From: Candidatus Iainarchaeum sp.
GTDB lineage: Archaea > Iainarchaeota > Iainarchaeia > JAGGVJ01
Direction of reading: 5' to 3'
DNA: 64,000 bases
Assembly: GCA_021158055.1 (NCBI GenBank)
Contig: JAGGVJ010000040.1
Span: forward strand, 4,114-68,113
Of this stretch, positions 38,389-62,180 are shown in pieces (the stretch's first letter is position 1; every line of letters begins with the position of its first letter). The notes below the pieces were generated by a model. The model saw only the letters and a list, made by a program, of their open reading frames with translations, had not been told where the DNA came from and ran no database searches. The translations under genes were made by a program, and so were the position numbers.

Positions 38389-41300
38389 TCATTTAGCAAA
38401 TCCTCTTATGAACTCAACAATTATTTCATCCAATTCATCTTCACAGGCATCCAATTCCAGACCCTGCCCACTGTTTATAAAACATATCTCCGGCGGTCTT
38501 TCATCACCATAATCCTTATCTTCGCACACCGGTCTTTCGTCTGAACCCATACTGAATATCAACCCCGTGATTATCAACTCACTGGTTGGACTCAAACTGT
38601 CATCTTTGTTTCTCCTGACTACTTTTACCGGCGTTACTGTATTTGTCTTTCCGATGTCTGACATTTGCTTCCCGTCAATACTAACGTCTCCTTCAAGTAT
38701 TTTAAGATACTTTCTCTGAATGTTTTCTACAACTTCCTCTGAACTGCCTTTTACAACCACTGAAACTTTCTGGCCTGTTCCCGCGGGAGCAGAAGGATTC
38801 CAACTCATGATTGCAAAAATTCCGTCGTATTTATTGATAAGATTCACTACTCTTAAACACGCGCTTTTATAGGCATCATCTTCCTTTTCACAACGGTTTT
38901 CATCAAGATTTTCCCCTACATACCTTGCAAACAGATTAAATTGACTGTTACCGGAGGCACGCGACGGTGAAAGATTTCCTGCCAATCCCTCAATGCCCTC
39001 AATCCCAGCTGTGTTGGAGTATTCAACATCAAACATCTCCTCAAAAGGCAAGCTGTATGTTCCTTTCTGCACGCCGGAACCGTCACTAAGCGGCGCAAAA
39101 AACAACGGGAAATACTTCGGCAGGTTTATCACGCCGAAATTGCAGTTGTAAGTGGACTTGCTGTCAGCTTCCTTTCTGTCAACTTTTACGATATAGCTGT
39201 TTTCACCATCCCTCGTGTAAATCCTTTTCCAGACACCGCAGGACATCTTTTTCGGACTAACCTCAAATTTGATTGACGTCGGGCCTGGACTGCTTATGTC
39301 ACTTCCAACAACAAAAATTTCCTTGTCCCAGCTTAAAAGTTTAAGGCGCGCAGGAGAAATTCCCCCGAGTTTAAACGGGGATTCCCCCCGATCATCTCTG
39401 AACACACCCAATGCAAGAGACATAATCCCATTGTATTCCTCATCTGTAAAAGCAAATTTAAATTCATTCTCGTGAATATTAGCTCTTTTCAAATTTCCGC
39501 CATCCAACGGAGAACTGAAAAGGAAAAGATACAATTCGTTCAAAAGCTTGAAAGTTGTCTGGTCGCAGTAATGCGTGTTGCATTCCCTGAACAGTTTGGA
39601 AATGTCTTGCGCTGAAAACCCTGAAACTTCACTGCCGTCGTCGTCAACAATTATTTTGTTTCCGTTGAACATCGCAGCAACTTCGCTAAACCCCCTGCTG
39701 TCTTCTTTCACCTTGAAATTGCCGCCCGAGGTTTTCTCAACCGGCTGGTCTTCCAGTGCTTCTTCCCCGAAAATCGTGGCGAAAAGAGAGTCGTATTCAA
39801 TAGTGCACTCTGTTCCGATTACGTTCACCCTGAAATCTGCAATCTTATTTTCAGGTTCGCTGAATCCTTCAAGAAGCTTTGTTTCACCCCGACCGACAAA
39901 AGTTTCAGAAAGGTCATAACCGTAATTGGTTGTGCCGGAAGTCGTCGAACTCTCAAGGAAACGAACTCCCTGCTTTCCTTTGTTCTGCGCCTTCAGCCCT
40001 TCTTCGGAGTTGATGAAAATAAGTGTCGAGTTCAGGTCAGAGCAATTCAGATATTTCTTTTTAAAAACATGGCTGCACTCTGTAGCCGCTTCACTTTCTT
40101 CTTCTCTTTTCATGCTGTATTCTATGCTGAACTCTTCTTCACTTTCACCGAAACTGACAAAAAGAAGATCAGATTTCCCGGATTCAATAATCACATCCTT
40201 GTCAGTCCCTGCGAAATTCGGATTTTTCGTTATTGTGACTTCTGCATCTGACTTGTTGTCAATAAACAGGCCGCCCAGCGAGTCGCTCAACTCAAACGAT
40301 ACCTTGTCGCACAGCTCGCTTCCGTAGACACAACCGTCGTCACGGTTAACGTTCACGGTTACTTTTTGTTTCGGGGCAGTTTCTTTTGATTCGCCGATGT
40401 AGATTGCAAGCACCCACTTGCCGTTGTCGTCAGTCAAATCGTCACTCACTTCCGCTTCCAGTTCAAACGTCTTTGCCTCGTCAATCAACAGTTTGTGTTC
40501 CTCGCTGAACTCTTCAAGAACTCCTTCTTTTTCAGCTTCTTCGTCATCGCCGGTAACTATCTCAAGAATCGTTGCAGTGGCCAAACCCTTGTCTGATCCT
40601 TCCTCGTCTTCACCCGGCAAAAGCTTGAAATACAGGTCAATGGCGTCTTCTGAAATGTTTTTCAAATCAAACTTGATTGACTCTGTTTTTTTGTCCTGCA
40701 TGCACATGTTGTCAAAAGAAATGCTTTCAATGGAGGTTTCAGTGTTTTGCTTGAGCACTTTCACGTAACTTTGCCCGCTTTGCGGTGAAATGCTCACTGA
40801 AACAGGCAAAGTGGCTTCAACAGGTTCGCCTGAACAGTCAACTGTAAGAACATACTGCCCTGAAACAGCCAGATTGCCTGTTATTGCCTTTTCTTTGTCT
40901 ATTTCCGCCACAAGTTCAATGTCTGTAAGCGCGCTGCTTTTGTCAGTCCATTTTGAAAACGCTGTTTCAATGTCCCCTCCGGAGCTTTTGCTTCTAAGCA
41001 ACACGTTCAGCTCAAAATCACCCGCGACAGTGTCGCCGCTTAAAACAATGAATTCCTGGCCTGAAAACGAACTGATGTTGCAGGAACAAACAGTTTCTAT
41101 TTTTATCCCCTGCAGTATTTTTGACCTGTTGCCGGAATCAAGCAAAAATTCTGCTTCCTGATCGCCTGAACCGTAAGATATCCTGAAGCAGTCGGAAGAA
41201 CCGTGCGCAGTCACTTTGAACGGCAGGGTTGTAATATGCAGCTTGTTGTCGCTGTCTGATTTGCCTGCAACGAAAACATATCCTTCAAAGCTTGGATCAC

Positions 41301-44300
41301 TTGCGGTTTCAACGCTCACCCACGCTTTCATCTTGAAATCAAGAGTGGAGCCGTTTTCAATTTCCCTTCCCAGAATAATGTTTTTGAAGTCAAGGTGAAA
41401 GTCGTCTGACTCGTTTCTTGAGACAATGTCAGCGACAGTAATCGTGATATTATTTGAGCCATTGTTTTTCAGTTTCAGGGTTTCTTCAATGGTTTCTGTT
41501 TTTTCAACAACGCCGAACTCAACAATTGAATCGCTTCCCTCTGAATCAGTTAACTTGAGGTCTGAGTCAAACTCTTCTGAAACATTTATGTCAACGCCTG
41601 CCGGCCTGAACCTACCTGCGCTTACCCTGGCGTTGACTGTTCCTTCTTCAAGTGAAAAGAACTCTCCCTGTTCAGGGAAAATGTATTCACCGTCTTTTCC
41701 AGAGCCCTCTTCGTCGTCAAACCCTGTTTTTGAATAAGTCACGTCTTCCCCGAGAGGCACACCGGTTTTGTTTGAAAGAAGAACGGATGCGCCAGTCACC
41801 GGAGTATCGCTTCCTGCTTCAGTTACAATCAGTTTTATCTGGTTTCTTCCTTCAAGAATCATTGTCGAAGGGCTCACGTCAACGTCAAGCAGTTTGTCCC
41901 CCGTGGAATCAAAGTAAACTGTAAACACGCCCCCCTCATCTTCTGCACCGTCTTTTGAAAACTCAAACTCTATTCCCACCCCGTCGCTGACAACTCTTGA
42001 AAACGCCTTTATTTCCCCTGCCAGCAAATCTGACTGGTAATCCTCAAGAAGCGTTGAAATCAAATCGCTTTCATCTTCAAAAGCAATCCCCCCGATGTCA
42101 TATGACTTGAACCTAACGCTTCCTGCCATGTCAGGCGAAACTTTTACTTTGTATCCGTCAAGATAACTCCCATTCTTTGAATAAGCGGAAAACTCAACCA
42201 CAAAATCAGTTGAGGTGACTGTTGAAAACAATCCGCTCGGGAAATATTCTTCACTGTCCTCTTCCCTGAAAAGCGCTGAAAAACACACATTTTCCCCACA
42301 CAGTTCTTCCTGCGCAACCACAAGGAATTCTTCCTCGCGCAATGCAATGTCTTTTTCGTCAATGTTTCCCCTGAAACCAAAAACTGCCTTGTCTTCTTCT
42401 TCCGCATCGCTTTTTACGGCAAGCCACACCTCAATCTGGTAAACCATTGGCCCGCCTGAAGAACTCTCCGCCTTTGAAAGGGAGATCCATTTCCAGCCCC
42501 CTGAAGACAGCATTGAAGTAGTTTCAAACTCCTGTCCGCCCAAAACTTCAAGGTCAATTTTTGAAGAATAGCCGCTTACAACCCAGTTTGAATCTTCAAG
42601 GCCGAGCCCTTCACCGACCGAAAGCATAAACACAGAGTCGCCTTCCGCGTTCTTTGGAATAATAACATTGAAAACCGCGCGGTACGTTTCATCTACTGCA
42701 ACCGCGTATTTTTGGTTTCCGCTTTGGTCAAATAGTCCTTCAAAATCTATTGATTCATCTGAACTTTCAGCATGCATTTTTGCGTTCACGGTCGCCCCGC
42801 CCGAAACAACAAGAACGGGCCTTGACACAAAGTCAAGGTAATTGTCTTCTTCGACCATCACATAAACAACCATGCCCTGCGGAGCCAGCAACTCATACGC
42901 CCCTTCTTTGCCGCTTGTGTCTTTTGTTATTTCACTGTTTGTTTCCACGTCAAACAACGAAACTTCGGCGCTGTTCAATGCAGAGCCGTTTTTTGCTTTT
43001 TCAACATTTACAATGATTTTTTCAAGTTTTGAACTCAACAAAATATCAACATTTGTTGTTTTTCCTGCTTCAACTTCAACTCCGGAAACCTGTCCGGATG
43101 AAGCCAGCGACTCTGCTTTTGCAGTTATTGCCGAACCTGCCGGGACATCCGGGAAAGAAACACAACCGTCTGTTTCGGTTTTTTTCAGGGGCATGCCAAG
43201 GAAATCTGTTCCGGTCCACAAGGTGACTGACGCCCCGTGAACAGCAGCAAAGTTTTTCTTCACGCAGACATTCAGGTTTGCCGAGTTTTGTGTAGTGGAC
43301 TCTTCAAGTTCAATTGATACCGTTGAACCGGAAGAAACGCCTTTTTTGAGCTTTGGAAGATACCCGCTCTTGTAAGCTGAAACATTGTATGTCCCTGCTT
43401 TCTCAAGCAGGACAACTCTTCCGCTTGAAGCAGTTGTTTCAGACAAAAGGATTTCTGAACCAGTAAGCAAAGTGACAGCTGCTCCGGAAATGCCTCCAAA
43501 GTATTCTGTTTTCACTTCCACGATTATCTGGTTTTCGTCACCTGCTTTTTCCATGGTGATTTCTTTTCTTTCAACTGTTTGTCCTGATTCGATTTCAAAA
43601 TAATTTGTTCTTTCTGTGGAGTAAATTCCCTCCGGATCTGTTGCAACAACCTGTATTTCAACGTTTGCGGGTATTTCGCGAAGGCTTACCGTTCCTCCCG
43701 CGTAAGTCGTGCCCTCTGAAATTTTCGTTGAGTCATACCTTTTGGCAGTTACGGTTATTCCGGCAAGCAAATCACCGGATTCGTTTTTAACTGTGACTGG
43801 AAGGGTAACTATTGAACTTTTCGGATCAGGCGCGCTTAGATTTTTTGCAAGGGTAACTGTAAACTGCTTGTTTTCTGATTCAGAGTCAACACTCACTTCT
43901 TCGCTGTAGTGGTTGTCTGAAGAAAACTCAAGAACATATCTTTTGCCTCTTTCAAACCCGCTGAAAGAAAACGCGCCGTCTGTGTAAAAAGTAGTTTTTA
44001 TGTTCAGCTTGGCACCAGTATCTTCAACACCCAAAATCGTGACCTCGCCGTCCAGCACTTCATTGTCATCGTTTTTTATCAAAAATGACGCTTCAAAACT
44101 CACTGTTTCTTTGGCAAGTGAAATCTCTGCAAGGGTTCCTGCTTCGTATGTGTTTTGCCCGATTTCAAATCCGTCTGTGTTGATAACCAATTTGACTGAT
44201 TTTTGCTCATACCCCTCTTTTTCAAGGTTTATCCTGAGCGGTTCTCCAAGCCGCGGGGACGCAATGTAAAACACCCCGTCCTCCTGCGTCTGCCCAAGGT

Positions 44301-44628
44301 CTTTCAAGCCGGTTTCAGGAAAATTGGCTGACACAAAAACCCCTTGGACAGGGTCAAGCGTTATTGAGTCAATGACTGTTACTTTGAACACTAAAGGCGA
44401 CATTGCCCCTGCTGCAAGGAAAGCGACTGTTCCGAGAAGCACAGTCAAAAGAATAAGGACAACCGGAAACGAGGGGACGTTTTTTGACTCCATTGCATCA
44501 ACAACAGAGTACACAGGAACTCCCTTGCCGTCCAGAAAATCAAGCACAGAATAGTACTTGTCCTCCATGGATGCATAGAAATCTGAAAGCGATTCCTTTA
44601 AGTTACTTGCCACACTCAAATAAACCAA
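38389..44628 (-). CDS. Giant N-terminally anchored surface protein (2079 aa) with carboxypeptidase-regulatory-like/Ig-like beta repeats
   Basis: ~50-aa cytoplasmic N-terminal module (LSDFYASMEDKYYSVLDFLDGKGVPVYSVVDAMESKNVPSFP), then one TM helix, then repeated VxVxDxxTxxPVxGAxV-type beta-sandwich units. C-terminal module has the IMSWNPSAPAGTG motif. No C-terminal TM. Confidence 0.8.
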   Translation of the reverse strand: MVYLSVASNLKESLSDFYASMEDKYYSVLDFLDGKGVPVYSVVDAMESKNVPSFPVVLILLTVLLGTVAFLAAGAMSPLVFKVTVIDSITLDPVQGVFVSANFPETGLKDLGQTQEDGVFYIASPRLGEPLRINLEKEGYEQKSVKLVINTDGFEIGQNTYEAGTLAEISLAKETVSFEASFLIKNDDNEVLDGEVTILGVEDTGAKLNIKTTFYTDGAFSFSGFERGKRYVLEFSSDNHYSEEVSVDSESENKQFTVTLAKNLSAPDPKSSIVTLPVTVKNESGDLLAGITVTAKRYDSTKISEGTTYAGGTVSLREIPANVEIQVVATDPEGIYSTERTNYFEIESGQTVERKEITMEKAGDENQIIVEVKTEYFGGISGAAVTLLTGSEILLSETTASSGRVVLLEKAGTYNVSAYKSGYLPKLKKGVSSGSTVSIELEESTTQNSANLNVCVKKNFAAVHGASVTLWTGTDFLGMPLKKTETDGCVSFPDVPAGSAITAKAESLASSGQVSGVEVEAGKTTNVDILLSSKLEKIIVNVEKAKNGSALNSAEVSLFDVETNSEITKDTSGKEGAYELLAPQGMVVYVMVEEDNYLDFVSRPVLVVSGGATVNAKMHAESSDESIDFEGLFDQSGNQKYAVAVDETYRAVFNVIIPKNAEGDSVFMLSVGEGLGLEDSNWVVSGYSSKIDLEVLGGQEFETTSMLSSGGWKWISLSKAESSSGGPMVYQIEVWLAVKSDAEEEDKAVFGFRGNIDEKDIALREEEFLVVAQEELCGENVCFSALFREEDSEEYFPSGLFSTVTSTDFVVEFSAYSKNGSYLDGYKVKVSPDMAGSVRFKSYDIGGIAFEDESDLISTLLEDYQSDLLAGEIKAFSRVVSDGVGIEFEFSKDGAEDEGGVFTVYFDSTGDKLLDVDVSPSTMILEGRNQIKLIVTEAGSDTPVTGASVLLSNKTGVPLGEDVTYSKTGFDDEEGSGKDGEYIFPEQGEFFSLEEGTVNARVSAGRFRPAGVDINVSEEFDSDLKLTDSEGSDSIVEFGVVEKTETIEETLKLKNNGSNNITITVADIVSRNESDDFHLDFKNIILGREIENGSTLDFKMKAWVSVETASDPSFEGYVFVAGKSDSDNKLHITTLPFKVTAHGSSDCFRISYGSGDQEAEFLLDSGNRSKILQGIKIETVCSCNISSFSGQEFIVLSGDTVAGDFELNVLLRSKSSGGDIETAFSKWTDKSSALTDIELVAEIDKEKAITGNLAVSGQYVLTVDCSGEPVEATLPVSVSISPQSGQSYVKVLKQNTETSIESISFDNMCMQDKKTESIKFDLKNISEDAIDLYFKLLPGEDEEGSDKGLATATILEIVTGDDEEAEKEGVLEEFSEEHKLLIDEAKTFELEAEVSDDLTDDNGKWVLAIYIGESKETAPKQKVTVNVNRDDGCVYGSELCDKVSFELSDSLGGLFIDNKSDAEVTITKNPNFAGTDKDVIIESGKSDLLFVSFGESEEEFSIEYSMKREEESEAATECSHVFKKKYLNCSDLNSTLIFINSEEGLKAQNKGKQGVRFLESSTTSGTTNYGYDLSETFVGRGETKLLEGFSEPENKIADFRVNVIGTECTIEYDSLFATIFGEEALEDQPVEKTSGGNFKVKEDSRGFSEVAAMFNGNKIIVDDDGSEVSGFSAQDISKLFRECNTHYCDQTTFKLLNELYLFLFSSPLDGGNLKRANIHENEFKFAFTDEEYNGIMSLALGVFRDDRGESPFKLGGISPARLKLLSWDKEIFVVGSDISSPGPTSIKFEVSPKKMSCGVWKRIYTRDGENSYIVKVDRKEADSKSTYNCNFGVINLPKYFPLFFAPLSDGSGVQKGTYSLPFEEMFDVEYSNTAGIEGIEGLAGNLSPSRASGNSQFNLFARYVGENLDENRCEKEDDAYKSACLRVVNLINKYDGIFAIMSWNPSAPAGTGQKVSVVVKGSSEEVVENIQRKYLKILEGDVSIDGKQMSDIGKTNTVTPVKVVRRNKDDSLSPTSELIITGLIFSMGSDERPVCEDKDYGDERPPEICFINSGQGLELDACEDELDEIIVEFIRGFAK

Positions 44629-44763
44629 TCCTGATTTTTAATTTAATTCCACTGTCTCCAATCAACAACCGGTTCAAACAACCACCAGTCATGATAAACA
44701 TTGCGGTTAAACCTTTAAAATAATTACCTTATTAAAAACATTTAGCAAAAGCGGTAAAAAAAA

Positions 44764-45195
44764 TCAAAGAAAAAACGGGACTGCCGCTGCAAGCGCTGAC
44801 ACCGCAAGCAAAGCAAACGCTATTTTGACCGGCTTGTTCGTGTTTGACTTTCCCCGCAGGTCTGCGTGGAGTTCAAGTCCGAGGTACGCGCCTGCAAAAA
44901 GCGCGATGAAAACCGGAAAAAACGTTTGGGCTGCTGCCTGTGGGTTTTCCTGCATAAGTTTGCCGACTGCCTGTCCGAAAAAAAAACTCGGCACAAAAGA
45001 AAAATAGCCGAAAAAAAGCATCGCTGACACAAAAGGCGCAACAGTTCCAAGCAAAACTGCGACAAGCAACTGGTCTGAAGTGATATTCAGGGGCACTTCA
45101 AAAAGCACCCCTTGTTCAAGCGCAAACCCAGCCAGAAGCCCGGCTGCAAAAAACGCAAGGGCAACCACCAAAAAAACCTGTTTCGGTTTCATCAT
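44764..45195 (-). CDS. Small polytopic membrane protein (143 aa)
   Basis: Four hydrophobic helices. Lies between the two giant genes. Confidence 0.45.
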   Translation of the reverse strand: MMKPKQVFLVVALAFFAAGLLAGFALEQGVLFEVPLNITSDQLLVAVLLGTVAPFVSAMLFFGYFSFVPSFFFGQAVGKLMQENPQAAAQTFFPVFIALFAGAYLGLELHADLRGKSNTNKPVKIAFALLAVSALAAAVPFFL

Positions 45196-45259
45196 TCAGA
45201 CACTGTTCCTTTATTCAATTGCTTATCACATCTCTCAGATTTCTCAAATTTCTCAAGCA

Positions 45260-48200
45260 TTACACTTCTTCAAAAGTCACTATGCAGTTGTCGTGCTGTG
45301 CAATATACACGTCGAGTGCCCAGCATGCGCCTGCAATTGCTGCGCTTCCCAACGGGTTGATTCTCTTTACTTTTTTTAATGACTCAAGTTTTTTCTCGGT
45401 TTCTTCAACACCTTTTGTCATTTCATTGCTTTTAGCCACAAACTCACTGTGTTTTTCCGTGTTTTTCAAAAGCGCGTCTGTTACGTCATCCCCTTCGTCG
45501 CTAAAGTTAACACCTTCGTCTGCAAGAGAACGTAAGTCAGTTTCCAGTTGCCCTTTACGGGCGGTCAACTCGTTTTGCGTTTCAAGCAGTTTTTCTTTAC
45601 CCAGCGCTCCTCCCTCTATCTTTCCCTGCAACTTCCAAACATTTTCAAACTGCTCGTTTACTTTTTTAAGATTTTCAACTCTTTCCGCTTCAAATTCACT
45701 GAACATTTTCTGGGTGTCTTTCACTTCTTTCAAAAGTTCCCTGCGCACAGTCAATTCTTTATTTGACGCATCCATCGTTTTCACTATGTCACCGGACAGC
45801 TTGTTTAACTCGCCGGTTTCCTTTACAAGATTTGTTTTGCCCTGCTCTAACGTCTGAATGCCTTTTTTAAGATTACTGGTATCTATTTCAATTTTCTTGA
45901 AATCACTTAAAGATGTCAAAACATTATCAAGAGCAGAATCATAACCCATTGTCAGGTTAGAGAACGCGCTATTTCCCTTGATTTCACTTACTGCATCTGC
46001 CAGTTTGGCCGGGTCGTCCCCCTTATTCACCATGTCCCTGAAGTCTGTGATAAATTTTCGATCCATATCATCTAATGTGTCCCCCGGAGCAGTCATAAAT
46101 TCATCAATACCTTCCAAAAGCACTTGTTTATTCTGTTTAAAAAGATGGCCTGCATCGTCAAGACGGGGACTGAGATCATTTAACGCAGCCCTGTTTTGAG
46201 TTATGGTTTCCTCAATGCCTTTCACTTGCTCCATGTTCAGATTCATGGTGTCATTTGCATTCTTGAAAGCCGATTCCAACCCCTTGACATCAAGTTCTGC
46301 CGGTTTTGTTTTGCTGAGATTATCCAACACATCCTTTAATGCCTTTTTTGAATCATCAATTTCTTTATTGACGGTGTCCAGTGCATCCAAATGCGCTTTA
46401 TAAACAAGATCATCACCCATCCCGGCCGTATCTATCTTCATGCCTGCCAGTATGGCGTCTCTTTCTTTAGTCAAACCAGCTACTTTGCCGTCTAATTTAC
46501 TTATATCATCTTCTAACCTGGCTATTTCATCCAGAGTATCTGCATATTTACTCCATTTGCCTGCCGCGTTCTTGTATGATTCGGCTATTTCTTTCTTGAT
46601 ATTATAGTTGTCAAGATAATTCTTATTGCCCAAAACCAGCAACTTAAGCTGTTTTCCAGACGAGTCAAGTGCATCCGGTTCAAGAACCTGTGAAGCTACT
46701 GCTCTTTGTATCTTGAACTGCCTGATTGCCGGATACAAACGTCTAAACGGCTGCGCAAGAGCCCCTTTTACTTTTTTTAACTTGCCGCTGCTTTCAACGA
46801 CTTCTTCCCCGAGCTTCTTGTAAGAACAAATAGCTCCCGCAGCTGTGGGGCCGGCAGTAATCCCTGCGGCTATCATCGGGGTGTAATAAGGTGAACGCGT
46901 CAAAGTGCTGATGTCAGTGAAGCCCTCCCCTGCTTCTTTGAACTTATTCTTATAGGCCATGTGGTCAAAGCCAACCTTCAGTATTTCGTCAACAACCAAA
47001 AAGTCAACCAACTGGTCAGCTACGAAAAGCCCGGCACTGGCTCCCGCGCCTGCCGGGTTCCAGGACATCAATGCTGCCCCGCCCCTGGCCACTGCAACCC
47101 CTGTCACAATCGTGCAGGCTGAATTCATTGCAGGGCAAGTGTTGATTGTCGGGCTTTCCTTGATTTCAATGTTCATCCTCAGTTTGACACCGTCATCACC
47201 CTTCATAACCTTTTCATTTCCATCCTCAGTCGTCATCAATCCGCTCCACCTTATTTCCGGCCTGCAGCTGTGGCAGTCATCTGTCAACATACTCTCGCCC
47301 CAAAAGTCAGATGAAAACGTGCTTCCCCAAAATTTTTCATCAACATCTGCAACGCACGTGGCCCAAGCGGGCTCGTTTTCCTTGTCCCTCAGGTTATGTA
47401 TTTTATCTCTGAAAACATCTTTTGTGAAATCTTCTCCCGTGTACTTGATTTTGTACCCGCCGTAGATTCCTGTGCCGGTGTCAAAAGAAATCAGCGCCGC
47501 AGTGCATTCACAGGCAATAAGACTTGCCAGCGCTTCAGCATCTTTCACAATCAAAGTCCGCCCGTCCTTGTCAACTTCCACCCTGCCCTCAAACTCAGGC
47601 AATATTATTTTCCAATTTCCATTGGCAAACACGCACTCGTTTCTGCCCGCGTCTTTTGCGTTCAAAGGAGCTTCAGTCAAACCCGTAATCACAAACGAAT
47701 CAATCTTTGCCCTGTCGCCTTCACGTTTTGAAGTGGACTGCGACCCGAAATAACAACCGATCGGTTTTGCTCCGGAAGCAATCTCAACAAAAGCACTCAC
47801 TGCTGTTCCAATTGATTTGTTGAGATCTTCTGATGAGTCTCCAAGAGCATTCTTGTCAATCACCAATTCAAAAATATTACTGCCGAACTTGGAAACATCG
47901 TGGTGAATCACACCGTAAGCTGGGTAGCCGATGTCCTTATTAAGAATATCAACCAATTCGCTTTCTTCTTTAGTCAAATTAGCCGAATCCCTAAAGAGCA
48001 ACTTGACAACGTTTTTTCCGCCGACGACATCAAGAGATGTTTTTACCCTGCCATCTTTTTCAAGCAAATTATAATCCAGTTCAGTTCCGCTTAAACCCGA
48101 AGCGATTTCTTCAACTATTCCCTTAAAACTGTCTTCTTCGTTCTTAGGAATTACAAAAACTGTGTTTTTCATTTCAGCTGCATCTTCCGAACTCAGGTTA

Positions 48201-51200
48201 TCCCAAGGCAAAAGAGTGCTCATGTGAAGTGCGTTTCCTTCACAGGCAGCTGTTTCACCGACATAGCTCGTTTCTACAAAGATACTGAACTGACTGCCTA
48301 TTTCACCATCACGGGCAAAAAACACCGGCTTGAACTTTACTTTGTACCAACCGCATTTCCTAAGTAACTCTTCCGAGTCATAATCATTGTGTGAATCATA
48401 ATCATTGTGTGAATCATAACCATAGTGTGAATCATAATCATAGTGTGAATCATAATCATAGTGTGAATCATAATCATAGTATATGTCTCCACCGGTGCTT
48501 ATTCTACCTGAATTCACCATTTCTCTGTAATCACCGCTCACTATCTGCCCGTTAAAGTAACGTGAAACAACATTGGTTTTTGCCCGTTTCAACGCTTCTA
48601 AAGTCACCCGGTCATCCATCAGGAACAAGTCAACCCCGTTTAATATCCAGTCATCCTGCGGAACAAGACCTGACTGAAGCAACTCTTCAAAAGTGCAGAT
48701 GTTTCTTTTAGATGACCCGCACCCGATATCCCTGATTTTCTTGCCTTCAAATGCTGTCAGTATCTTATCCATGAACCGGTCTGCTTTTTCAATTACATAT
48801 TCAGCGGCCTGCATCCCATCACAGTACCCGTCACTGCAGTCCCCGCTCAAACCTGCTTTTGTCGGAATCGAGACAGTTTTTGTTATCCCGATATCCGGGT
48901 CGCATGAGTGAACCAGATACTCTGTCGTGAAATCGGATGTCTTCAAATCAGAGCCTATTTCCACGTTTATCATTATAAGCTCGCTTAAAATTTCTGTATC
49001 TGAAGATGTTTCACCTGCAATGAAAACACCTTTCTGGAAGCTGTCACTCACTATAGCTGCTCTTTTGGACACTCTTTTCAACCTAAAGTCAAACTGCGCG
49101 GTTTCACCGTCAAAAAGAGACCTTTTTGAACCTTCTGAAAAGTCAATGTACAACCTGAAATCGTTAAGAGGAATGAAATCGACAAACCTGGTTATCCTTT
49201 TGCCGCACTCGTTCTTGATAACAACTGAACTTTTTATTTCATCAAAGTAAGCAGTTGTTGAAACAAAATCAATTGACTCCGAACTGATTACCTTCAGGCA
49301 ACCTTCTTCTTCGGGAACTATTTCCACAATCAAGCCCACTTCCCTTGAAACTGAAGTGACTTTTCCCGGCTTGTTCTTATAATAGACATCTGCGTCGATA
49401 ACAAGAGTCCCGGTCATTCTCCCTGCCTCTCCGCTGTAACCTGAAGCATCAACTTCAATTTCAAAATGAGTTGTGTCTTCCGGTTCAAGCTCATCTATTG
49501 TTGACGATGCTTCAGTCTCGCTCAAATAATTCACATAAATATTCGGGTTGATCTCCCAGTCTTCTGCTTTTTCACTTATCCTAATGTTTTTGAAAGTAAC
49601 CGAACCGCGGTTTTTCAAGACAAGTTTTTCTGCATTGCCGTCCAGTATATCAAGCGATTCCCCCGCCTTGAGCTTTAGCTTTACCTTGTTCTCAACATCA
49701 AGGGCTGCTGCCTCGTCAAGGAACACCACTGCATAGTCAAGCTCTCCTGAAACGTCCTGCGAGCCGTTTTCCCCCCTGAAAACAAGGGTTCCGACAACAT
49801 CATCATCTTCAGCGTTGTTCTCGCTGTCATCCAAAGTGTCTGCCTGGAAAGTCACAAGGACAGTCGCCTTGTTCTCGCCTGAAAGCGAATCAGCTGAAAG
49901 CAATTCTATAACTGTACTTTCTTCTTCACCTGTCCCTTCAATCACCTGGTTTCCGTTGCAGTCAAGGACAAAAATTCCACCGTCAAGATCATTGCTGGAA
50001 TAAGCGACAATGTTTGACAAATCAATCCCACAATTGTTTTTCAAAACGACTTCCATTGAATTGAACGCAGTGTCAAGGTCTTCTGAGCCGACCACAAACT
50101 CTGTCTGCGACGGGGTCACTTCAAGGCATTCCGCAATTACCTGCGCGTCTATTTTCGGCGCGTACAAGAGTTTTATCCTTCCCTGCGCTGTCACATACTC
50201 GTTGTCTTTCACTGCAAATATCTTGATTGTGGCCTCGGCTGACGCGGAATCCGTCGAGTCAGGGAAATAACCTGAAGTGAACGTGAGGTAAGTTGTCTCG
50301 CCAGGCCCGAGCAATCTTGTGATTGATGCGTCGTCGAGCTCCAAGCTGAAATCATCATCCGGAAAGCCCTCGTCGCGTTCAACTACAACCTGCAGGTCAG
50401 TGAGTTTTTTGCTTGAGCTATTTTTTATGGCAAGCTGTTTTGTCGCGGTTTTTATATTAAGGGGAATCTCAATCACAAACGGGTCTTCGTCAATTGCGAT
50501 CGCCGCTTCTTTTCCGACACGCACAAGAATTGTCTCTTCGGCAAAGTGATCTGCTGAAACATTTACTGCAATGACTCCCGAGGCAGGCTCAATTGTGGTT
50601 GCGTAGACGCCGTTTCTTCCGCGGTTTCTCTTGTCTTTTCCTGTAATTGTTATTGTTTTGTTTCCAAGCGGTTTCCCGATGTTGTTGACCAGTTTTATCG
50701 TGGCGTCGGTAACTGCTTCAAAATCTCCCGCGCGAAGCACTGTTATCATAAACTGGGTTTTTTCACCTGCAACAGCCATTTCCGGCTCAACGAAAACACT
50801 GAGCCCCAGTCCCGCAACAACTTTAAGGAACAGCTCTTTTTCAATCAGCACTTCACCTGACCTTTTCACAATTATTTTTACTGAAGCCGAGTTGTTTTCA
50901 GCTGTCGGGACAAACACTGCCTCAAGGCCTGTTCCCCTGTTTTTCCCAAGGCTTTCAAGGTTGACTGCAAGCGCGTGCGCTTCGTCATCAAGCTGTGTCT
51001 GGGTTCCAAGGTAATGGTATGACACAAAGTCAAGCGATGCGTCAGAATTTAAAATTTCCACCTGCAAATCTTCAAGGTCTTGTTTTGCCTGCACTTCGAT
51101 TCCAAGCGAGTAGACCGCGCTCAAGTACGCCTCACTTGCAGTCAGGTCCTTGATTTCTTCCCCGGTTATTGCCCTTGAAAAACCGTAATTCATGCAGATT

Positions 51201-53557
51201 TCCTGCGTGCATTCAACCGTATTTTGCGTCACTGAAAATTCAACGGGTGTGGTGGCTGCGTAAAGCGGCTGTTTTCCTTCAGAGTCAATCAAAGTTCCAA
51301 GTTCTTCGTCAAACGGGCTTCTTTCCATGCCGCCCAGGTTTATGTAAGTCCAGCCCCTGAAATTGAATTTCACTCTCTCGCCCAAAACCACGTTGTCTTT
51401 CACCTGAACTGCAAAGTCCACAACATGCGTTCCTTTCCCGACATCTTTTCCAACCACCTGCACCCACTTGTTCATCTGTCCTGAAAGCGTGGTTCCTGCC
51501 ATGTCAATATCCTGTCCAAGCGGGGGGTTGTGGGTCGTGCCTGAAGACGGTTCTCCCATCGCCTGCATCACTCCCGTGATTGCAACATTGTCTTTTGCTG
51601 AAAAGTCGTTTTCTTCAAGGCCTGTCATCAAAAACAACCCTGCCTCGTCTGACGCGGCGGCCGTGTTCAACGCGACTCTTGCGCGGTACTGCTTGCTTTC
51701 AACAACGCTTTCTACCCTGTTTCCGAACCTGTCGAACAAGCCGATGAAAACCGCGCCCGTGGAATCCGCGGGGCTGAAAAGCTGTACATCTATGCGGTTT
51801 TCTTTTGAAGAGTCAATGTTTATGACATGGGAAAAGTATTTTGCGCTGCCAGGCGATTCAACGACTGCGTAAGCCTGTATGCCTTCAACAACGTCAAACT
51901 CGGCAACCCCATTTGAATCCGTGACAGTCGGCGACGAAAGCTCTTTGCCTAAAACCGTTGCCGCATTGTCAAATAAAATCACGCTTGCTCCTGAAACCGG
52001 GTTTTCTTCTTTTGTCACTTTGACCGTGACTTTTGTCTGCGTTGCGCTTATGTCAATCATTGGTTCCTGCGTGGTCGGAGTTTCCACTGGTTTTGCCACT
52101 CCGACTTTGGAGCCGACGTATGCCTTTGCAATGACTGTCTTGTTGTTCGGAACGTCGCTGAACTCCGCGCAACCGCTTGAACCGGTCAATTCTGACGGGA
52201 TTCCCAGCACTTTTGACGCAGTCTCAAAAAGAACAACCGGCACACCGTTTAACGGTGCCTTGGTGTCTTCTTCGCGGACACACACTCTAAGGGTTGATGT
52301 ATTTTCCTTGGTTGACAGCTCCATTGAAGCCAAAACTGATTCCCCTGCCCCGACATCTGTCCTGACAAACGGGACATAGTTGCCTGAGTAGACAGAAACC
52401 ATGTATTTTTTTGACTTGTCCACAAGAACTTTTCCTGTCCCGTCGATGTCCTGCGATTTCACGAGAACGCCGTCCAGATAAACGTTTACGGCTGCTTCAA
52501 GGGGTGTTCCGGTCATGGTTCTTGCAGTGACGTTTATAAAGTCGCTGTTTGCAAAATCAGCTGTTGAAATAATCATTTCAAGTTTGTTTTCAGCGTTTGA
52601 AAGGACCTGAACGGCTTTTTCAGTCTGGCTCAAGTACTCTTCTTTTGACACCGTCACGTTGTAAAGTCCTGGTATCAGCCCTCTTAAAACTGTTTTTCCG
52701 TCAACGTCGGTCTTTTCAGAAGACGCGAGTTCTGCAACGCCTTTTGGGCGGGCTTCAACCTCCGCTCCTTCAACTGCATCGCCGTTTATGTCTTCAATGT
52801 AAACCAGTAAATCTGCAGGTTCGCTTTCATCGGCTTCAAGGCTTATGGAGAGCTCCTGGTCTGAGTTGAACGTGAATGTTTCGCTTTTTTCCTGATAGCC
52901 CGGGGATGTGAAAACAAGGTCAATGTCTTGTCCCTGCGGAACTATCGCTTCAATTACCCCGTTTTCTTTTATGGTGTATGTTCCAAGGTCTTCTCCTTCT
53001 TTCATTACCTTGACTGTGCCTTCCCTTACAATGCTGTCAAAATCGGTTGTGACTCTCATCACTACTTTCACGTTTGTTTTTTCAAGTTTTGAAAGCGAAA
53101 AATCCTGCTGAAGCGAAGTGAAATAAAAGGATTTGTCAAGGGTTTCGTAGTCATACTTTGTTATCTCTACTGTGCCGTAACTATTGAGCTTGTCGAAATT
53201 TTCTATTGTTGCAATTCCTTTTGAATCGGTTTTTCCGATAAACGAGCTTAAGGTATCCGGGTAGGTTATCCTGACATCAGCCCCTTCAATGGCTGCTCCT
53301 GTTTCCGCATCAACGACTTTTACCTGAAGCGTTCCAGAGGCGGGGGTGCCAAGCATGAAAAACGCGACAAGCCCAATGAAAAAAATCGTCAAAAATAACG
53401 GGAAAACAGGTATGTTCTTGTCTTCAAGCGCGTCTATTACGCGGTAAACAGGGATTCCGTGGTCATCCACAAAATCCATCAAACCAAAAAACTTGTTTTC
53501 CACGCCGTAATAAAAGTCGTTCAAATTGTCTTTAACTGACTTGGATGCCAACTTCAT
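45260..53557 (-). CDS. Giant N-terminally anchored surface protein (2765 aa); paralogous architecture to 38389..44628, with (DYDSHY)n repeat and C-terminal coiled coil
   Basis: N-terminus LNDFYYGVENKFFGLMDFVDDHGIPVYRVIDALEDKNIPVFP + TM, colinear with the N-terminus of the 2079-aa protein. CarbopepD_reg-like repeats (TLQVKVVDAETGAAIEGADVRITY...). HYDYDS tandem repeat. ~450-aa coiled coil. C-terminal LMSWNPAGAGASAG motif shared with the other giant. Confidence 0.8.
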   Translation of the reverse strand: MKLASKSVKDNLNDFYYGVENKFFGLMDFVDDHGIPVYRVIDALEDKNIPVFPLFLTIFFIGLVAFFMLGTPASGTLQVKVVDAETGAAIEGADVRITYPDTLSSFIGKTDSKGIATIENFDKLNSYGTVEITKYDYETLDKSFYFTSLQQDFSLSKLEKTNVKVVMRVTTDFDSIVREGTVKVMKEGEDLGTYTIKENGVIEAIVPQGQDIDLVFTSPGYQEKSETFTFNSDQELSISLEADESEPADLLVYIEDINGDAVEGAEVEARPKGVAELASSEKTDVDGKTVLRGLIPGLYNVTVSKEEYLSQTEKAVQVLSNAENKLEMIISTADFANSDFINVTARTMTGTPLEAAVNVYLDGVLVKSQDIDGTGKVLVDKSKKYMVSVYSGNYVPFVRTDVGAGESVLASMELSTKENTSTLRVCVREEDTKAPLNGVPVVLFETASKVLGIPSELTGSSGCAEFSDVPNNKTVIAKAYVGSKVGVAKPVETPTTQEPMIDISATQTKVTVKVTKEENPVSGASVILFDNAATVLGKELSSPTVTDSNGVAEFDVVEGIQAYAVVESPGSAKYFSHVINIDSSKENRIDVQLFSPADSTGAVFIGLFDRFGNRVESVVESKQYRARVALNTAAASDEAGLFLMTGLEENDFSAKDNVAITGVMQAMGEPSSGTTHNPPLGQDIDMAGTTLSGQMNKWVQVVGKDVGKGTHVVDFAVQVKDNVVLGERVKFNFRGWTYINLGGMERSPFDEELGTLIDSEGKQPLYAATTPVEFSVTQNTVECTQEICMNYGFSRAITGEEIKDLTASEAYLSAVYSLGIEVQAKQDLEDLQVEILNSDASLDFVSYHYLGTQTQLDDEAHALAVNLESLGKNRGTGLEAVFVPTAENNSASVKIIVKRSGEVLIEKELFLKVVAGLGLSVFVEPEMAVAGEKTQFMITVLRAGDFEAVTDATIKLVNNIGKPLGNKTITITGKDKRNRGRNGVYATTIEPASGVIAVNVSADHFAEETILVRVGKEAAIAIDEDPFVIEIPLNIKTATKQLAIKNSSSKKLTDLQVVVERDEGFPDDDFSLELDDASITRLLGPGETTYLTFTSGYFPDSTDSASAEATIKIFAVKDNEYVTAQGRIKLLYAPKIDAQVIAECLEVTPSQTEFVVGSEDLDTAFNSMEVVLKNNCGIDLSNIVAYSSNDLDGGIFVLDCNGNQVIEGTGEEESTVIELLSADSLSGENKATVLVTFQADTLDDSENNAEDDDVVGTLVFRGENGSQDVSGELDYAVVFLDEAAALDVENKVKLKLKAGESLDILDGNAEKLVLKNRGSVTFKNIRISEKAEDWEINPNIYVNYLSETEASSTIDELEPEDTTHFEIEVDASGYSGEAGRMTGTLVIDADVYYKNKPGKVTSVSREVGLIVEIVPEEEGCLKVISSESIDFVSTTAYFDEIKSSVVIKNECGKRITRFVDFIPLNDFRLYIDFSEGSKRSLFDGETAQFDFRLKRVSKRAAIVSDSFQKGVFIAGETSSDTEILSELIMINVEIGSDLKTSDFTTEYLVHSCDPDIGITKTVSIPTKAGLSGDCSDGYCDGMQAAEYVIEKADRFMDKILTAFEGKKIRDIGCGSSKRNICTFEELLQSGLVPQDDWILNGVDLFLMDDRVTLEALKRAKTNVVSRYFNGQIVSGDYREMVNSGRISTGGDIYYDYDSHYDYDSHYDYDSHYGYDSHNDYDSHNDYDSEELLRKCGWYKVKFKPVFFARDGEIGSQFSIFVETSYVGETAACEGNALHMSTLLPWDNLSSEDAAEMKNTVFVIPKNEEDSFKGIVEEIASGLSGTELDYNLLEKDGRVKTSLDVVGGKNVVKLLFRDSANLTKEESELVDILNKDIGYPAYGVIHHDVSKFGSNIFELVIDKNALGDSSEDLNKSIGTAVSAFVEIASGAKPIGCYFGSQSTSKREGDRAKIDSFVITGLTEAPLNAKDAGRNECVFANGNWKIILPEFEGRVEVDKDGRTLIVKDAEALASLIACECTAALISFDTGTGIYGGYKIKYTGEDFTKDVFRDKIHNLRDKENEPAWATCVADVDEKFWGSTFSSDFWGESMLTDDCHSCRPEIRWSGLMTTEDGNEKVMKGDDGVKLRMNIEIKESPTINTCPAMNSACTIVTGVAVARGGAALMSWNPAGAGASAGLFVADQLVDFLVVDEILKVGFDHMAYKNKFKEAGEGFTDISTLTRSPYYTPMIAAGITAGPTAAGAICSYKKLGEEVVESSGKLKKVKGALAQPFRRLYPAIRQFKIQRAVASQVLEPDALDSSGKQLKLLVLGNKNYLDNYNIKKEIAESYKNAAGKWSKYADTLDEIARLEDDISKLDGKVAGLTKERDAILAGMKIDTAGMGDDLVYKAHLDALDTVNKEIDDSKKALKDVLDNLSKTKPAELDVKGLESAFKNANDTMNLNMEQVKGIEETITQNRAALNDLSPRLDDAGHLFKQNKQVLLEGIDEFMTAPGDTLDDMDRKFITDFRDMVNKGDDPAKLADAVSEIKGNSAFSNLTMGYDSALDNVLTSLSDFKKIEIDTSNLKKGIQTLEQGKTNLVKETGELNKLSGDIVKTMDASNKELTVRRELLKEVKDTQKMFSEFEAERVENLKKVNEQFENVWKLQGKIEGGALGKEKLLETQNELTARKGQLETDLRSLADEGVNFSDEGDDVTDALLKNTEKHSEFVAKSNEMTKGVEETEKKLESLKKVKRINPLGSAAIAGACWALDVYIAQHDNCIVTFEEV

Positions 53558-58518: not shown

Positions 58519-58522
58519 AAAA

Positions 58523-60730: not shown

Positions 60731-60738
60731 TCTCAAAA

Positions 60739-61221: not shown

Positions 61222-61395
61222 CAAAAAAACAATAACAATAAATAATATCAAACACAATTCAGTATTCACTAAGAATATTAATCAAATCCAGTATTTGCTA
61301 AAAATATCAATCAATGTCAATACACTAAAATATTACAAAAATATTAAGATATTATCAAAAAAGATATTATAAAAATCTTCAGAAAAGGTGATTCA

Positions 61396-62176: not shown

Positions 62177-62180
62177 ACCG

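What the first reader, a model, noticed from the sequence alone, without database searches (positions are those of the whole stretch)
38389..53557. Two giant paralogous surface proteins with shared cytoplasmic N-terminal module + TM anchor and shared C-terminal 'MSWNP' module
The 2079-aa and 2765-aa proteins both begin with a ~50-aa non-hydrophobic segment of conserved pattern (L-x-DFY...E-x-K-[YF]-x-x-[LM]DF[LV]D..G[VI]PVY.V[VI]DA[ML]E.KN[VI]P.FP). This is followed by a single TM helix and then a very long extracytoplasmic region of carboxypeptidase-regulatory-like beta repeats. Both end in a related domain containing [IL]MSWNP[SA].[AP]AG[TA][GS]. This is a type-II (N-in) anchor, not a Sec signal peptide, class-III signal or PGF-CTERM. 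Conservation of a cytoplasmic handle suggests recognition by a dedicated insertion or secretion machinery, possibly the adjacent filament locus, or a regulatory interaction. I do not recognise this architecture as a named family.
Basis: seen in the sequence. Interest (0 to 1): 0.8.

Follow-up and report, generated by a model that had tools for sequence, protein, structure and literature searches.

The report
Conserved N-terminal handle on DPANN giant proteins
Two giant membrane-anchored surface proteins of a tiny (DPANN) archaeon share a previously undescribed 50-residue N-terminal module that marks about a thousand similar giants and always sits in a gene cluster with a pilus-type motor and a sortase-like enzyme, which points to an unrecognised way of placing huge proteins on the cell surface.

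Summary
The C-terminal one is not supported.

- **N-terminal module.** Residues 1-55 of protein A and 1-53 of protein B align far above chance: score 153 against 23±5 for shuffles.
- **Family size.** A profile of the module finds 981 protein clusters. In the 150 best hits listed it sits at the extreme N-terminus. Complete proteins are about 1,700-3,075 aa. Confirmed genomic copies are almost all in DPANN archaeal MAGs (Iainarchaeota/Diapherotrites, Micrarchaeota).
- **Predicted structure.** AlphaFold gives an acidic helix-turn-helix, an IPxFP junction and then one TM helix (pLDDT 91.6). Pfam, NCBIfam and PDB searches find no relative.
- **Gene cluster.** The giants come in two types, S and P, within a conserved cluster: FlaJ/TadC-like platform and FlaI/TadA-like ATPase, divergent from a small archaeosortase-family enzyme with its catalytic Cys/Arg/His intact, then giant, a large prepilin-like protein, and giant. 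The window holds all of these.
- **C-terminal "MSWNP module".** It is not significant (59 against 58±8). In B it lies 600 residues from the end, ahead of a coiled coil.

Best reading: an N-in signal-anchor with a dedicated cytoplasmic handle that ties the giants to the co-encoded machinery. Whether the handle is kept, cleaved like a prepilin leader, or read by the sortase is open.

The parts
38389..44628 (-). Giant protein A (2079 aa; probable true start is the GTG at 44613, giving 2074 aa). P-type member of the family.
   Evidence: ORF and translation. An identical 2074-aa protein is in a JGI metagenome. Without its N-module it is closer to P-type than to S-type relatives.
44464..44628 (-). 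N-terminal module of A (residues 1-55): acidic helix-turn-helix ending in K-N-VPSFP.
   Evidence: The family profile scores 119.5 bits, E=4e-30.
44401..44463 (-). Signal-anchor TM helix of A (about residues 56-76).
   Evidence: Kyte-Doolittle 19-residue window mean of 2.64.
42829..44391 (-). CarboxypepD_reg-like beta-sandwich repeats of A (about residues 80-600).
   Evidence: PF13620, E=3.8e-22, 4 stretches.
38794..38808 (-). MSWNP motif of A (residues 1941-1945).
   Evidence: Its similarity to B is not significant. By eye it resembles the '..L.L.WNP' C-terminal motif of P-type relatives, but a profile of that region does not hit it.
45260..53557 (-). Giant protein B (2765 aa). The body is closer to S-type relatives.
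   Evidence: Summed BLAST bits are 138 on average to S-type against 99 to P-type.
53399..53557 (-). N-terminal module of B (residues 1-53): helix 8-32, turn HGIPVY, helix 37-46, then K-N-IPVFP.
   Evidence: AlphaFold2 model with a 39-sequence alignment, mean pLDDT 91.6..
53342..53398 (-). Signal-anchor TM helix of B (about residues 54-72).
   Evidence: Hydropathy 2.65. Model helix at 51-68.
47054..47068 (-). MSWNP motif of B (residues 2164-2168), inside a Gly/Ala-rich, moderately hydrophobic stretch preceded by C-x6-C.
   Evidence: The resemblance to the S-type 'C..CN..hydrophobic..DCG[IV]P' region is by eye only. The profile does not detect it.
45365..46624 (-). Coiled-coil region of B (about residues 2312-2731). 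Probably cytoplasmic (inference).
   Evidence: Weak SMC, Rad50 and ASRP profile matches typical of coiled coils. Flanked by SYKK and KKVKR.
45299..45355 (-). C-terminal Gly/Ala-rich hydrophobic segment of B (PLGSAAIAGACWALDVYIA), preceded by KKVKR.
   Evidence: Analogous to the basic-flanked second hydrophobic segment of S-type relatives.
48378..48480 (.). 18-bp tandem repeat, 5.7 copies, inside B. It encodes the (Y/N)DYDSH peptide repeat.
44764..45195 (-). 143-aa polytopic membrane protein between B and A.
   Evidence: No family hit. A small membrane protein follows the giant in the related locus L128 as well.
53730..55511 (-). 593-aa prepilin-like protein (MKKG|FTLFTPLVGMVILVIAL...). Conserved partner of the giants.
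   Evidence: Homologues lie immediately upstream of 38 giants in other genomes.
55609..56250 (-). Small archaeosortase/exosortase-family enzyme (about 203-213 aa) with the Cys (ICSG), Arg (FNPVRI) and His (FTHN) motifs.
   Evidence: TIGR04178 scores 33.8 bits against a cut-off of 23. 24 homologues beside giants keep LCTG, FN..RI and H..lFR. It lies directly upstream of 24 giants elsewhere.
56224..58518 (+). FlaI/TadA-like type-IV-filament ATPase (764 aa), divergent from the sortase gene.
   Evidence: PF00437, E=2.5e-19. FlaI and TadA NCBIfam matches fall below their cut-offs. The divergent partnering is conserved.
58475..60730 (+). FlaJ/TadC-like polytopic platform protein (751 aa). Assigned by position and topology, not by a family hit.
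   Evidence: Sequence. Homologues sit next to the ATPase in other loci. No Pfam or NCBIfam hit.
60727..63998 (+). Run of small prepilin-like ORFs (RG|QEF.., HG|QEE.., RG|IML.., KG|FIG..).
   Evidence: N-termini read.
37734..38372 (-). 212-aa Cys-rich protein with a lipobox-like N-terminus (LLSGC), directly downstream of A.
   Evidence: No homologue in the other loci.

Best explanation
A and B are the two giant subunits (P-type and S-type) of a conserved DPANN-archaeal cell-surface apparatus. Its genes are clustered with a type-IV-filament motor (FlaI/TadA-like ATPase and FlaJ/TadC-like platform), prepilin-like proteins and a small archaeosortase-family enzyme.

The shared N-terminus is the family-defining element. 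It is a roughly 45-residue acidic helix-turn-helix that contains a duplicated [DE]-x-[KR]-G-[IV]-P-x-[YF] motif. An IPxFP junction joins it to a single signal-anchor helix.

The most likely working is as follows.
- The helix inserts N-in. The 2000-2700-residue body is exported, and the acidic module stays on the cytoplasmic face.
- There it acts as a dedicated handle that docks the giants to the cytoplasmic side of the co-encoded machinery for placement, clustering or assembly.
- In S-type members, and apparently in B, a second and third hydrophobic segment return part of the chain to the cytoplasm as a helical domain of about 420 residues. This gives the giant two cytoplasmic contact points.

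Shown: the module, its family, its predicted fold and the conserved gene cluster. Inferred: the topology, with moderate support, and the docking function, which is speculative.
For: **The module is real**
- A/B similarity has a z-score of about 26.
- The profile finds 981 clusters at E<=1e-3 and 409 at E<=1e-10. In the 150 best hits listed it starts within the first 36 residues. Complete proteins are about 1,700-3,075 aa.
- Nearly invariant residues are Y16, E20, D28, G34, P36, Y38, E45, P50, F52 and P53.
- The AF2 model has pLDDT 91.6 with helices at 8-32, 37-46 and 51-68.

**Topology**
- K/R count is 1.05 before the TM against 0.31 after it.
- The body has CarboxypepD_reg repeats.
- Homologues P0072 and P0125 end in an SLT domain above the Pfam cut-off.
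- The second hydrophobic segment of S-type proteins is preceded by 4.7 K/R against 0.6 D/E.

**Link to the machinery**
- Of 74 giants with readable upstream DNA, 38 follow the prepilin-like gene, 24 the sortase gene, 4 another giant and 2 the platform gene.
- Independent loci show the same order: L004-L006, L126, L127, and L128, which was sampled from the sortase side.
- The sortase passes TIGR04178 and keeps its catalytic residues.
Against: - No experiment or dedicated predictor (DeepTMHMM, SignalP) was available. The module is net acidic, which is not the classic positive-inside signature.
- No physical contact with any partner was tested, because only single chains could be modelled.
- Cleavage of the module cannot be excluded, either at [KR]G|IP in S-type members or after the TM by signal peptidase.
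- Six giants with readable upstream DNA (for example L005) show none of the cluster genes upstream.
- The platform protein is assigned only by position and topology.
Confidence: 0.45

Rival explanations
1. The module is an unusually long, structured class-III (prepilin-type) leader. A prepilin-type peptidase cuts at the cytoplasmic face, at [KR]-G|I-P-x-F-P. The giants then enter the filament or its base through their N-terminal helix, as giant pilin-like subunits or tip adhesins.
For: - The giants lie in a type-IV-filament locus with true prepilin-like genes that have [KRH]-[GA]| junctions.
- S-type giants have G at -1 in 31/31 and K/R at -2 in 29/31 in the unbiased set. In the synteny set it is 24/24 [RKH]G.
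- The topology is the same N-in as prepilins.
Against: - P-type giants have Asn at -1 in 20/22, and both window proteins have K-N.
- The leader is about 45 residues and acidic, whereas known leaders are short and basic (own knowledge).
- Pro at +2 and +5 does not fit the archaeal prepilin motif as I recall it (FlaFind; from memory, not tested).
- The helix is only about 18-22 residues and is followed within about 10 residues by a beta domain, which is short for a filament-core helix.
- No Peptidase_A24 gene was seen in the window ORFs scanned or in the flanks.
Confidence: 0.2
2. The IPxFP-plus-TM element is the recognition signal of the adjacent small archaeosortase-family enzyme. That would make it an N-terminal, inverted counterpart of the PGF-CTERM or PEP-CTERM signals. 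The enzyme would process, release or cross-link the giants.
For: - A catalytically intact archaeosortase-family gene lies directly upstream of S-type giants, with gaps of 19-160 bp in many loci.
- No protein in the cluster has a C-terminal motif-TM-basic signal.
- A proline-containing motif immediately N-terminal to a TM helix is the format of all known exosortase/archaeosortase signals (PMC6098224).
- ArtA can process a tripartite signal that is not C-terminal (PMC6098224).
Against: - Reading the enzyme's hydrophobic segments and charged loops by hand places its Cys, Arg and His on the outer face (sequence, family alignment). IPxFP is on the cytoplasmic face if the giants are N-in.
- There is no basic cluster after the TM (0.31 K/R).
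- The acyl-enzyme chemistry of sortases would keep the N-terminal fragment, not the body (own knowledge).
- The true substrate could lie elsewhere in the genome.
Confidence: 0.12
3. The module is a generic extension of a Sec signal peptide, analogous to ESPR or YSIRK in bacterial giant adhesins. It would pace or target translocation of a very long substrate and be removed with the hydrophobic segment by signal peptidase I.
For: - It occurs only on very large exported proteins.
- Small residues (G/S/A) are common after the helix, for example TPASG|T in B.
- The concept is established for bacterial autotransporters and Gram-positive adhesins (own knowledge).
Against: - There is no match to ESPR, YSIRK or any Pfam family even at E<=10.
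- The hydrophobic segment is anchor-length.
- No conserved cleavage motif follows it.
- The tight synteny with a dedicated machine is not expected for a generic Sec feature.
Confidence: 0.1
4. The similarity only reflects recent duplication of one gene in this genome and has no special meaning.
For: A and B align over about 1180 residues.
Against: - Overall identity is only 23%, while the module stands out at about 40%.
- The same module heads about 1000 clusters in many genomes.
- A and B fall into the two old types.
Confidence: 0.02

Closest known systems
Class III (type IV prepilin) signal peptides of archaeal pilins and archaellins
   Same: N-in insertion. A charged segment sits directly before a hydrophobic helix. 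S-type relatives have [KR]-G at the junction. The genes are encoded beside a FlaI/TadA-like ATPase, a platform protein and true prepilin-like genes.
   Different: The leader is about 45 residues, acidic and folded, rather than short and basic. Asn is at -1 in P-type members and in both window proteins. Prolines sit at +2 and +5. The helix is short and is followed at once by beta-sandwich repeats. No prepilin peptidase was seen nearby.
Archaeosortase/exosortase tripartite sorting signals (PGF-CTERM, PEP-CTERM, VPXXXP-CTERM, PIP-CTERM)
   Same: A short proline-containing motif sits immediately N-terminal to a TM helix. A dedicated sortase-family gene is adjacent.
   Different: The element is at the N-terminus and in the opposite membrane orientation. 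There is no basic tail. A 2000-2700-residue body follows instead of the protein ending.
Extended signal peptide regions of giant bacterial adhesins (ESPR PF13018; YSIRK PF04650; KxYKxGKxW)
   Same: A conserved N-terminal extension precedes the hydrophobic export segment, and it is restricted to very large surface proteins.
   Different: There is no sequence relationship. It is archaeal, twice as long, acidic and helical. The hydrophobic segment is of anchor length. It is linked to a specific gene cluster.
Other giant surface proteins of DPANN archaea (for example the SPEARE proteins of Nanohaloarchaeota, PMC6642349) and the 'murein-like lytic transglycosylase' large proteins noted in DPANN MAGs (PMC10936187)
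   Same: Multi-thousand-residue surface proteins in reduced-genome, presumably host-attached archaea. Some family members carry an SLT domain.
   Different: None of the papers found describes the N-terminal module, the S/P pairing or the ATPase-sortase-prepilin cluster. A and B themselves lack an SLT domain.

Membership tests
Sec (SPase I) signal peptide | Short, positively charged n-region | tested here: not met
   About 41 residues precede IPxFP, with a mean of 4.0 K/R against 7.4 D/E. A has 4 K/R and 8 D/E; B has 6 and 9.
Sec (SPase I) signal peptide | Short h-region (about 7-15 residues) followed by a small-x-small cleavage site | tested here: inconclusive
   The helix is about 18-23 residues. 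Small residues follow it but no conserved site does. No SignalP or DeepTMHMM was available.
Class III (prepilin) signal peptide | [KR]-[GA] immediately before the hydrophobic helix | tested here: not met
   A has K-N and B has K-N. P-type relatives have N at -1 in 20/22. S-type relatives do meet it, with G at -1 in 31/31.
Class III (prepilin) signal peptide | Short basic leader | tested here: not met
   The leader is about 45-50 residues, acidic and helical.
Class III (prepilin) signal peptide | Genomic association with a type-IV-filament ATPase and platform | tested here: met
Class III (prepilin) signal peptide | Cognate prepilin peptidase (Peptidase_A24) in the genome | not testable with these tools
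   None was found in the window ORFs scanned or in the flanks. Whole genomes could not be scanned.
Archaeosortase/exosortase sorting signal | Signature motif directly N-terminal to a TM helix | tested here: met
   [IV]-P-x-F-P lies before the helix. P50, F52 and P53 are at least 90% conserved.
Archaeosortase/exosortase sorting signal | Located at the C-terminus, or at least with the exported domain N-terminal to it | tested here: not met
   The element is at residues about 48-75 of proteins of 2079 and 2765 residues. The C-termini lack a motif-TM-basic signal.
Archaeosortase/exosortase sorting signal | Basic cluster after the TM helix | tested here: not met
   0.31 K/R in the 15 residues after the helix.
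Archaeosortase/exosortase sorting signal | Cognate sortase-family enzyme encoded in the genome or nearby | tested here: met
   Window 55609-56250(-) passes TIGR04178 at 33.8 bits against a cut-off of 23. It is adjacent in 24 other loci, and the catalytic residues are kept.
ESPR / YSIRK extended signal peptides | Match to PF13018 or PF04650 | tested here: not met
   No such hit at E<=10.
CarboxypepD_reg-repeat surface proteins (PF13620) | Domain match above the gathering score | tested here: met
   78.9 bits for A and 68.9 bits for B against a cut-off of 32.3. The match covers only about residues 80-600.
Exosortase/archaeosortase enzyme family (neighbour gene 55609-56250) | TIGR04178 signature plus conserved Cys, Arg and His | tested here: met
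   It does not reach the cut-off of any named subfamily (ArtB, ArtD, XrtH, XrtX).

The most novel reading that the evidence does not exclude
The IPxFP-TM junction with its folded acidic leader is a new class of N-terminal sorting signal. It would be read by the dedicated small archaeosortase-family enzyme, by the type-IV-filament machine, or by both. Two multi-pass giants would then be assembled into a motor-coupled apparatus that DPANN archaea use to attach to, and through the SLT-bearing members to breach, a host envelope. This would be the first N-terminal substrate signal for the exosortase/archaeosortase superfamily and the first functional coupling of that superfamily to a type-IV-filament system.
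Probability: 0.15. Interest if true: 0.9.

Novelty: new variant of a known kind. Interest (0 to 1): 0.72.

Why it matters
How DPANN archaea hold on to and exploit their hosts is a central open question, and their giant surface proteins are prime suspects with no known biogenesis route.

This finding defines a sequence tag that picks out about a thousand such giants. It shows that they come as a conserved S/P pair. It also ties them genetically to three things that can be tested: a pilus-type ATPase and platform, a large prepilin-like protein, and a catalytically intact archaeosortase of an unnamed subfamily.

The result is a concrete, falsifiable model system for protein sorting in uncultured archaea. 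It also raises the possibility of an N-terminal sorting signal for a superfamily known so far only from C-terminal signals.

Tried and rejected
- **Word-indexed search with the 75-aa module alone.** It found nothing. The family only appeared with the full-length query and then the exhaustive profile search.
- **The search for related loci with the module alignments.** I replaced it with a degenerate DNA pattern. That pattern fixes G[IV]PVY and [IV]PxFP in that sample, so conservation at those positions is quoted only from the unbiased set.
- **MSWNP as a family-wide C-terminal motif.** By eye, P-type relatives end in 'VC..L.L.WNP' and S-type relatives have 'C..CN..DCG[IV]P'. Profiles of both regions fail to hit A or B, so I do not claim homology.
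- **Fold search of the module model against the PDB.** Nothing below E=3.9.
- **Sequence profile against the PDB.** Nothing below E=0.14.
- **Weak TadB_TadC_N hit (E=0.15) on A.** It falls below the cut-off and overlaps the TM, so I disregarded it.
- **Literature searches.** Five searches and four papers read found no description of the module or the cluster.
- **Virus or mobile-element origin.** Rejected, because the flanks are RNA polymerase, ribosomal protein S7, PurP, PolB and MetAP genes.
- **First structure job.** I reran it without that row.
Full report
**What is at the coordinates**

The region holds two long minus-strand ORFs. Protein A is 38389-44628 (2079 aa from a TTG; the public gene call starts five codons later at a GTG and gives 2074 aa). 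Protein B is 45260-53557 (2765 aa). The window is cellular archaeal DNA. It carries split RNA polymerase subunits, ribosomal protein S7, two PurP genes, family-B DNA polymerase and methionine aminopeptidase. It is identical to contigs from JGI metagenome 3300016457.

**The N-terminal observation holds**

- Each protein has exactly one strong hydrophobic helix, at residues 56-74 in A and 51-69 in B. A non-hydrophobic, net acidic segment precedes it.
- These segments align with a Smith-Waterman score of 153, against 23.2±5.0 for 1000 shuffles, none of which reached it.
- They head a BLASTP alignment with E=6e-49 over the first ~1180 residues. That alignment is only 23% identical overall.
- No other reading frame in the window carries the module.

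**The C-terminal observation does not hold**

- Comparing everything after residue 1200 gives a best local score of 59, against 57.9±7.6 for shuffles, and 85 of 200 shuffles reach it.
- Only a window chosen around the motif gives a marginal 52 against 37±5.
- In B the MSWNP motif is at residues 2164-2168, about 600 residues before the end. About 420 residues that match SMC/Rad50-type coiled-coil profiles follow it, and then a final Gly/Ala-rich hydrophobic segment.
- Pfam sees CarboxypepD_reg or Ig-like repeats only in about residues 80-600 of either protein.

**The module defines a large family**

- A full-length search with A returned only four distant relatives of 1660-2919 aa. All four begin with the same module.
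- A profile of six modules was searched exhaustively against 1.84 billion representatives. It found 981 clusters at E<=1e-3 and 409 at E<=1e-10.
- In the 150 hits listed, the match always starts within the first 36 residues. Complete proteins are about 1,700-3,075 aa. The short hits look like contig-end fragments.
- In a 39-sequence alignment, Y16, E20, D28, G34, P36, Y38, E45, P50, F52 and P53 (B numbering) are at least 90% conserved.
- The consensus is M..isE.L..fY..lEDKYY..LD.LD.KGIPVYk.vD.lE.[KR][GN]IPSFP followed by the helix. It contains a tandem duplication of [DE]-x-[KR]-G-[IV]-P-x-[YF], 14 residues apart.
- AlphaFold2 with that alignment gives a confident model (mean pLDDT 91.6): helix 8-32, turn, helix 37-46, turn, helix 51-68, then a linker into the first beta strand.
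- Nothing in Pfam (even at E<=10), NCBIfam, PDB sequences or PDB folds resembles it.

**Taxonomy**

A degenerate DNA pattern for the two GIP motifs was scanned over one genome per species. The profile then confirmed about 80 loci. With one exception, a 2.7-kb contig binned as Actinomycetota, all are archaeal MAGs. They are named Candidatus Iainarchaeum/Diapherotrites (including the complete genomes CP064981.1 and CP010424.1 'AR10'), Micrarchaeota, or simply 'archaeon'. The bacterial pattern matches were chance hits that the profile rejected.

**Gene neighbourhood**

This is the main new result. Profiles were built from the window's neighbours and from two related loci, and then searched over all fetched loci. 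Of the 74 giants with readable upstream DNA:

| Gene immediately upstream | Giants |
|---|---|
| Prepilin-like gene of about 350-620 aa | 38 |
| Archaeosortase-family gene of about 140-215 aa | 24 |
| Another giant | 4 |
| Platform gene | 2 |
| None of these | 6 |

- The sortase gene is usually divergent from a FlaI/TadA-like ATPase of about 730-770 aa and a polytopic platform protein.
- The usual order is platform, ATPase (both on the opposite strand), then sortase, giant S, prepilin-like gene, giant P.
- Longer contigs show the same layout.
- Sampling from the sortase side gives the same picture. P0155 is 41% identical to the window enzyme. Its locus reads sortase, prepilin-like gene, a 1744-aa giant with the module, then a small membrane protein. 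This is the same order as in the window.
- The window has every part: sortase 55609-56250(-), prepilin-like 53730-55511(-), B, a 143-aa membrane protein, A, and divergently the ATPase 56224-58518(+), platform 58475-60730(+) and several small prepilin-like ORFs.
- The sortase passes the TIGR04178 family signature (33.8 bits against a cut-off of 23) but no named subfamily. Across 24 homologues found beside giants it keeps the Cys (LCTG), Arg (FN..RI) and His motifs.

**Two types of giant**

- S-type giants follow the sortase. P-type giants follow the prepilin-like gene.
- In the unbiased protein set the types separate cleanly by their C-terminal parts.
  - 31 S-type proteins have a Cys-rich hydrophobic region ending in [DN]C[G..][IV]P about 600-700 residues before the end.
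  - 22 P-type proteins end in 'VC...L.L.WNP'.
- They also separate by the residue before IPxFP. It is Gly in 31/31 S-type proteins, with K/R before it in 29. It is Asn in 20/22 P-type proteins.
- In 15 of the 31 S-type proteins a second Gly/Ala-rich hydrophobic segment lies about 424 residues further on. A strongly basic flank precedes it (4.7 K/R against 0.6 D/E in 20 residues).
- Two S-type proteins end in an SLT lytic-transglycosylase domain above the Pfam cut-off.
- Without their modules, B is closer to S-type proteins (mean 138 against 99 summed bits) and A is closer to P-type (median 42 against 0). A and B therefore represent the old S/P pair, although both have the P-like K-N junction.
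- B's coiled coil and its KKVKR-flanked terminal hydrophobic segment look like the S-type arrangement. This is by analogy only, because the profile does not detect it.

**Topology**

- N-in is the better-supported reading.
  - K/R are three times more frequent just before the helix than after it.
  - The body is built of beta-sandwich repeats.
  - In S-type relatives, an extracellular SLT domain and the basic flank of the last hydrophobic segment fit only an N-in start.
- The acidic character of the module is unusual for a cytoplasmic flank, and I could not run a dedicated predictor.

**Mechanism**

- The evidence shows a family-specific, folded, acidic N-terminal module fused to a signal-anchor helix. 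It occurs only on paired giants that are encoded with a type-IV-filament motor, prepilin-like proteins and an active-looking archaeosortase.
- I infer that the module is a cytoplasmic handle that couples the giants to that machinery.
- Three more specific readings remain open.
  - It could be a long prepilin-type leader. The [KR]G junction in S-type members favours this. The Asn junction in A, B and P-type members, the acidity, the Pro-rich +1 to +5 residues and the short helix all count against it.
  - It could be an N-terminal signal for the adjacent sortase. Adjacency, the motif-then-TM format and the absence of any C-terminal signal in the cluster favour this. The enzyme's outward-facing catalytic residues and the missing basic tail count against it.
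  - It could be an ESPR-like extension of a cleaved Sec signal. The size restriction favours this. The anchor-length helix and the dedicated synteny count against it.

**Comparison with the literature**

The archaeal type IV pili survey (PMC4858521) mentions neither sortases nor DPANN. The archaeal dark-matter review notes divergent DPANN pilus loci with 'specific surface proteins' (PMC6393860). The cell-surface review describes archaeosortases only with C-terminal or central tripartite signals, and only in Euryarchaeota (PMC6098224). 'Murein-like lytic transglycosylase' large proteins have been noted in DPANN MAGs (PMC10936187). I found no description of the module, the S/P pair or the cluster. 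The library does not cover all journals.

**Verdict**

The N-terminal observation is confirmed and generalised, and the C-terminal one is not.

Noticed in passing
window 55609-56250 (-): A small archaeosortase/exosortase-family gene sits beside the giants. It passes TIGR04178 and keeps the Cys, Arg and His motifs, but belongs to no named subfamily. The locus has no protein with a C-terminal tripartite signal. Archaeosortases have been described mainly from Euryarchaeota.
   Followed up: yes
window 56220-56250 versus 56224: The divergent sortase and ATPase ORFs overlap or nearly abut at their 5' ends as called. At least one start codon is probably further downstream, or the two promoters lie inside each other's coding region.
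   Followed up: no
window 48378-48480: An 18-bp tandem repeat (5.7 copies, 96% matches) inside B encodes a (Y/N)DYDSH peptide repeat. It could be a length-variable linker.
   Followed up: partly
P0072 residues 2551-2601; P0125 residues 2746-2875 (homologues; locus L127): Some S-type family members end in an SLT lytic-transglycosylase domain, which is a peptidoglycan-cleaving fold in an archaeal surface protein. A and B lack it.
   Followed up: partly
window 45299-47100 (B residues about 2140-2753) and S-type homologues: S-type giants have two extra Gly/Ala/Cys-rich hydrophobic segments about 424 residues apart. The second is preceded by a strongly basic flank, which suggests a multi-pass topology with a large cytoplasmic helical domain. 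With a C-terminal lysozyme-like domain in some members, this part loosely recalls phage tape-measure proteins.
   Followed up: partly
window 22563-28364 (-): A third giant protein (1933 aa) has four DUF2341 domains, a Laminin_G_3 domain and an ordinary N-terminal signal-like helix. It lacks the module and is unrelated to A and B.
   Followed up: no
window 60727-63998 (+): Four small ORFs downstream of the platform gene have prepilin-like N-termini. Two have Gln at +1 (RG|QEF, HG|QEE), which resembles the euryarchaeal EppA/DUF361-type pilin signal as I recall it.
   Followed up: no
window 37734-38372 (-): A 212-aa Cys-rich protein with a lipobox-like LLSGC N-terminus lies 16 bp downstream of A. 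The other fetched loci have no homologue.
   Followed up: partly
L005 18146-24745; L051; L049: In a few genomes the second giant of the pair has a degenerate module, for example one lacking IPxFP (QGISGLQV). So the junction motif is not absolutely required in every copy.
   Followed up: no
L088 (CAYMPQ010000114.1, 2.7 kb): One true module-bearing contig is binned as 'uncultured Actinomycetota bacterium'. Given its size it is most likely a mis-binned archaeal fragment.
   Followed up: no
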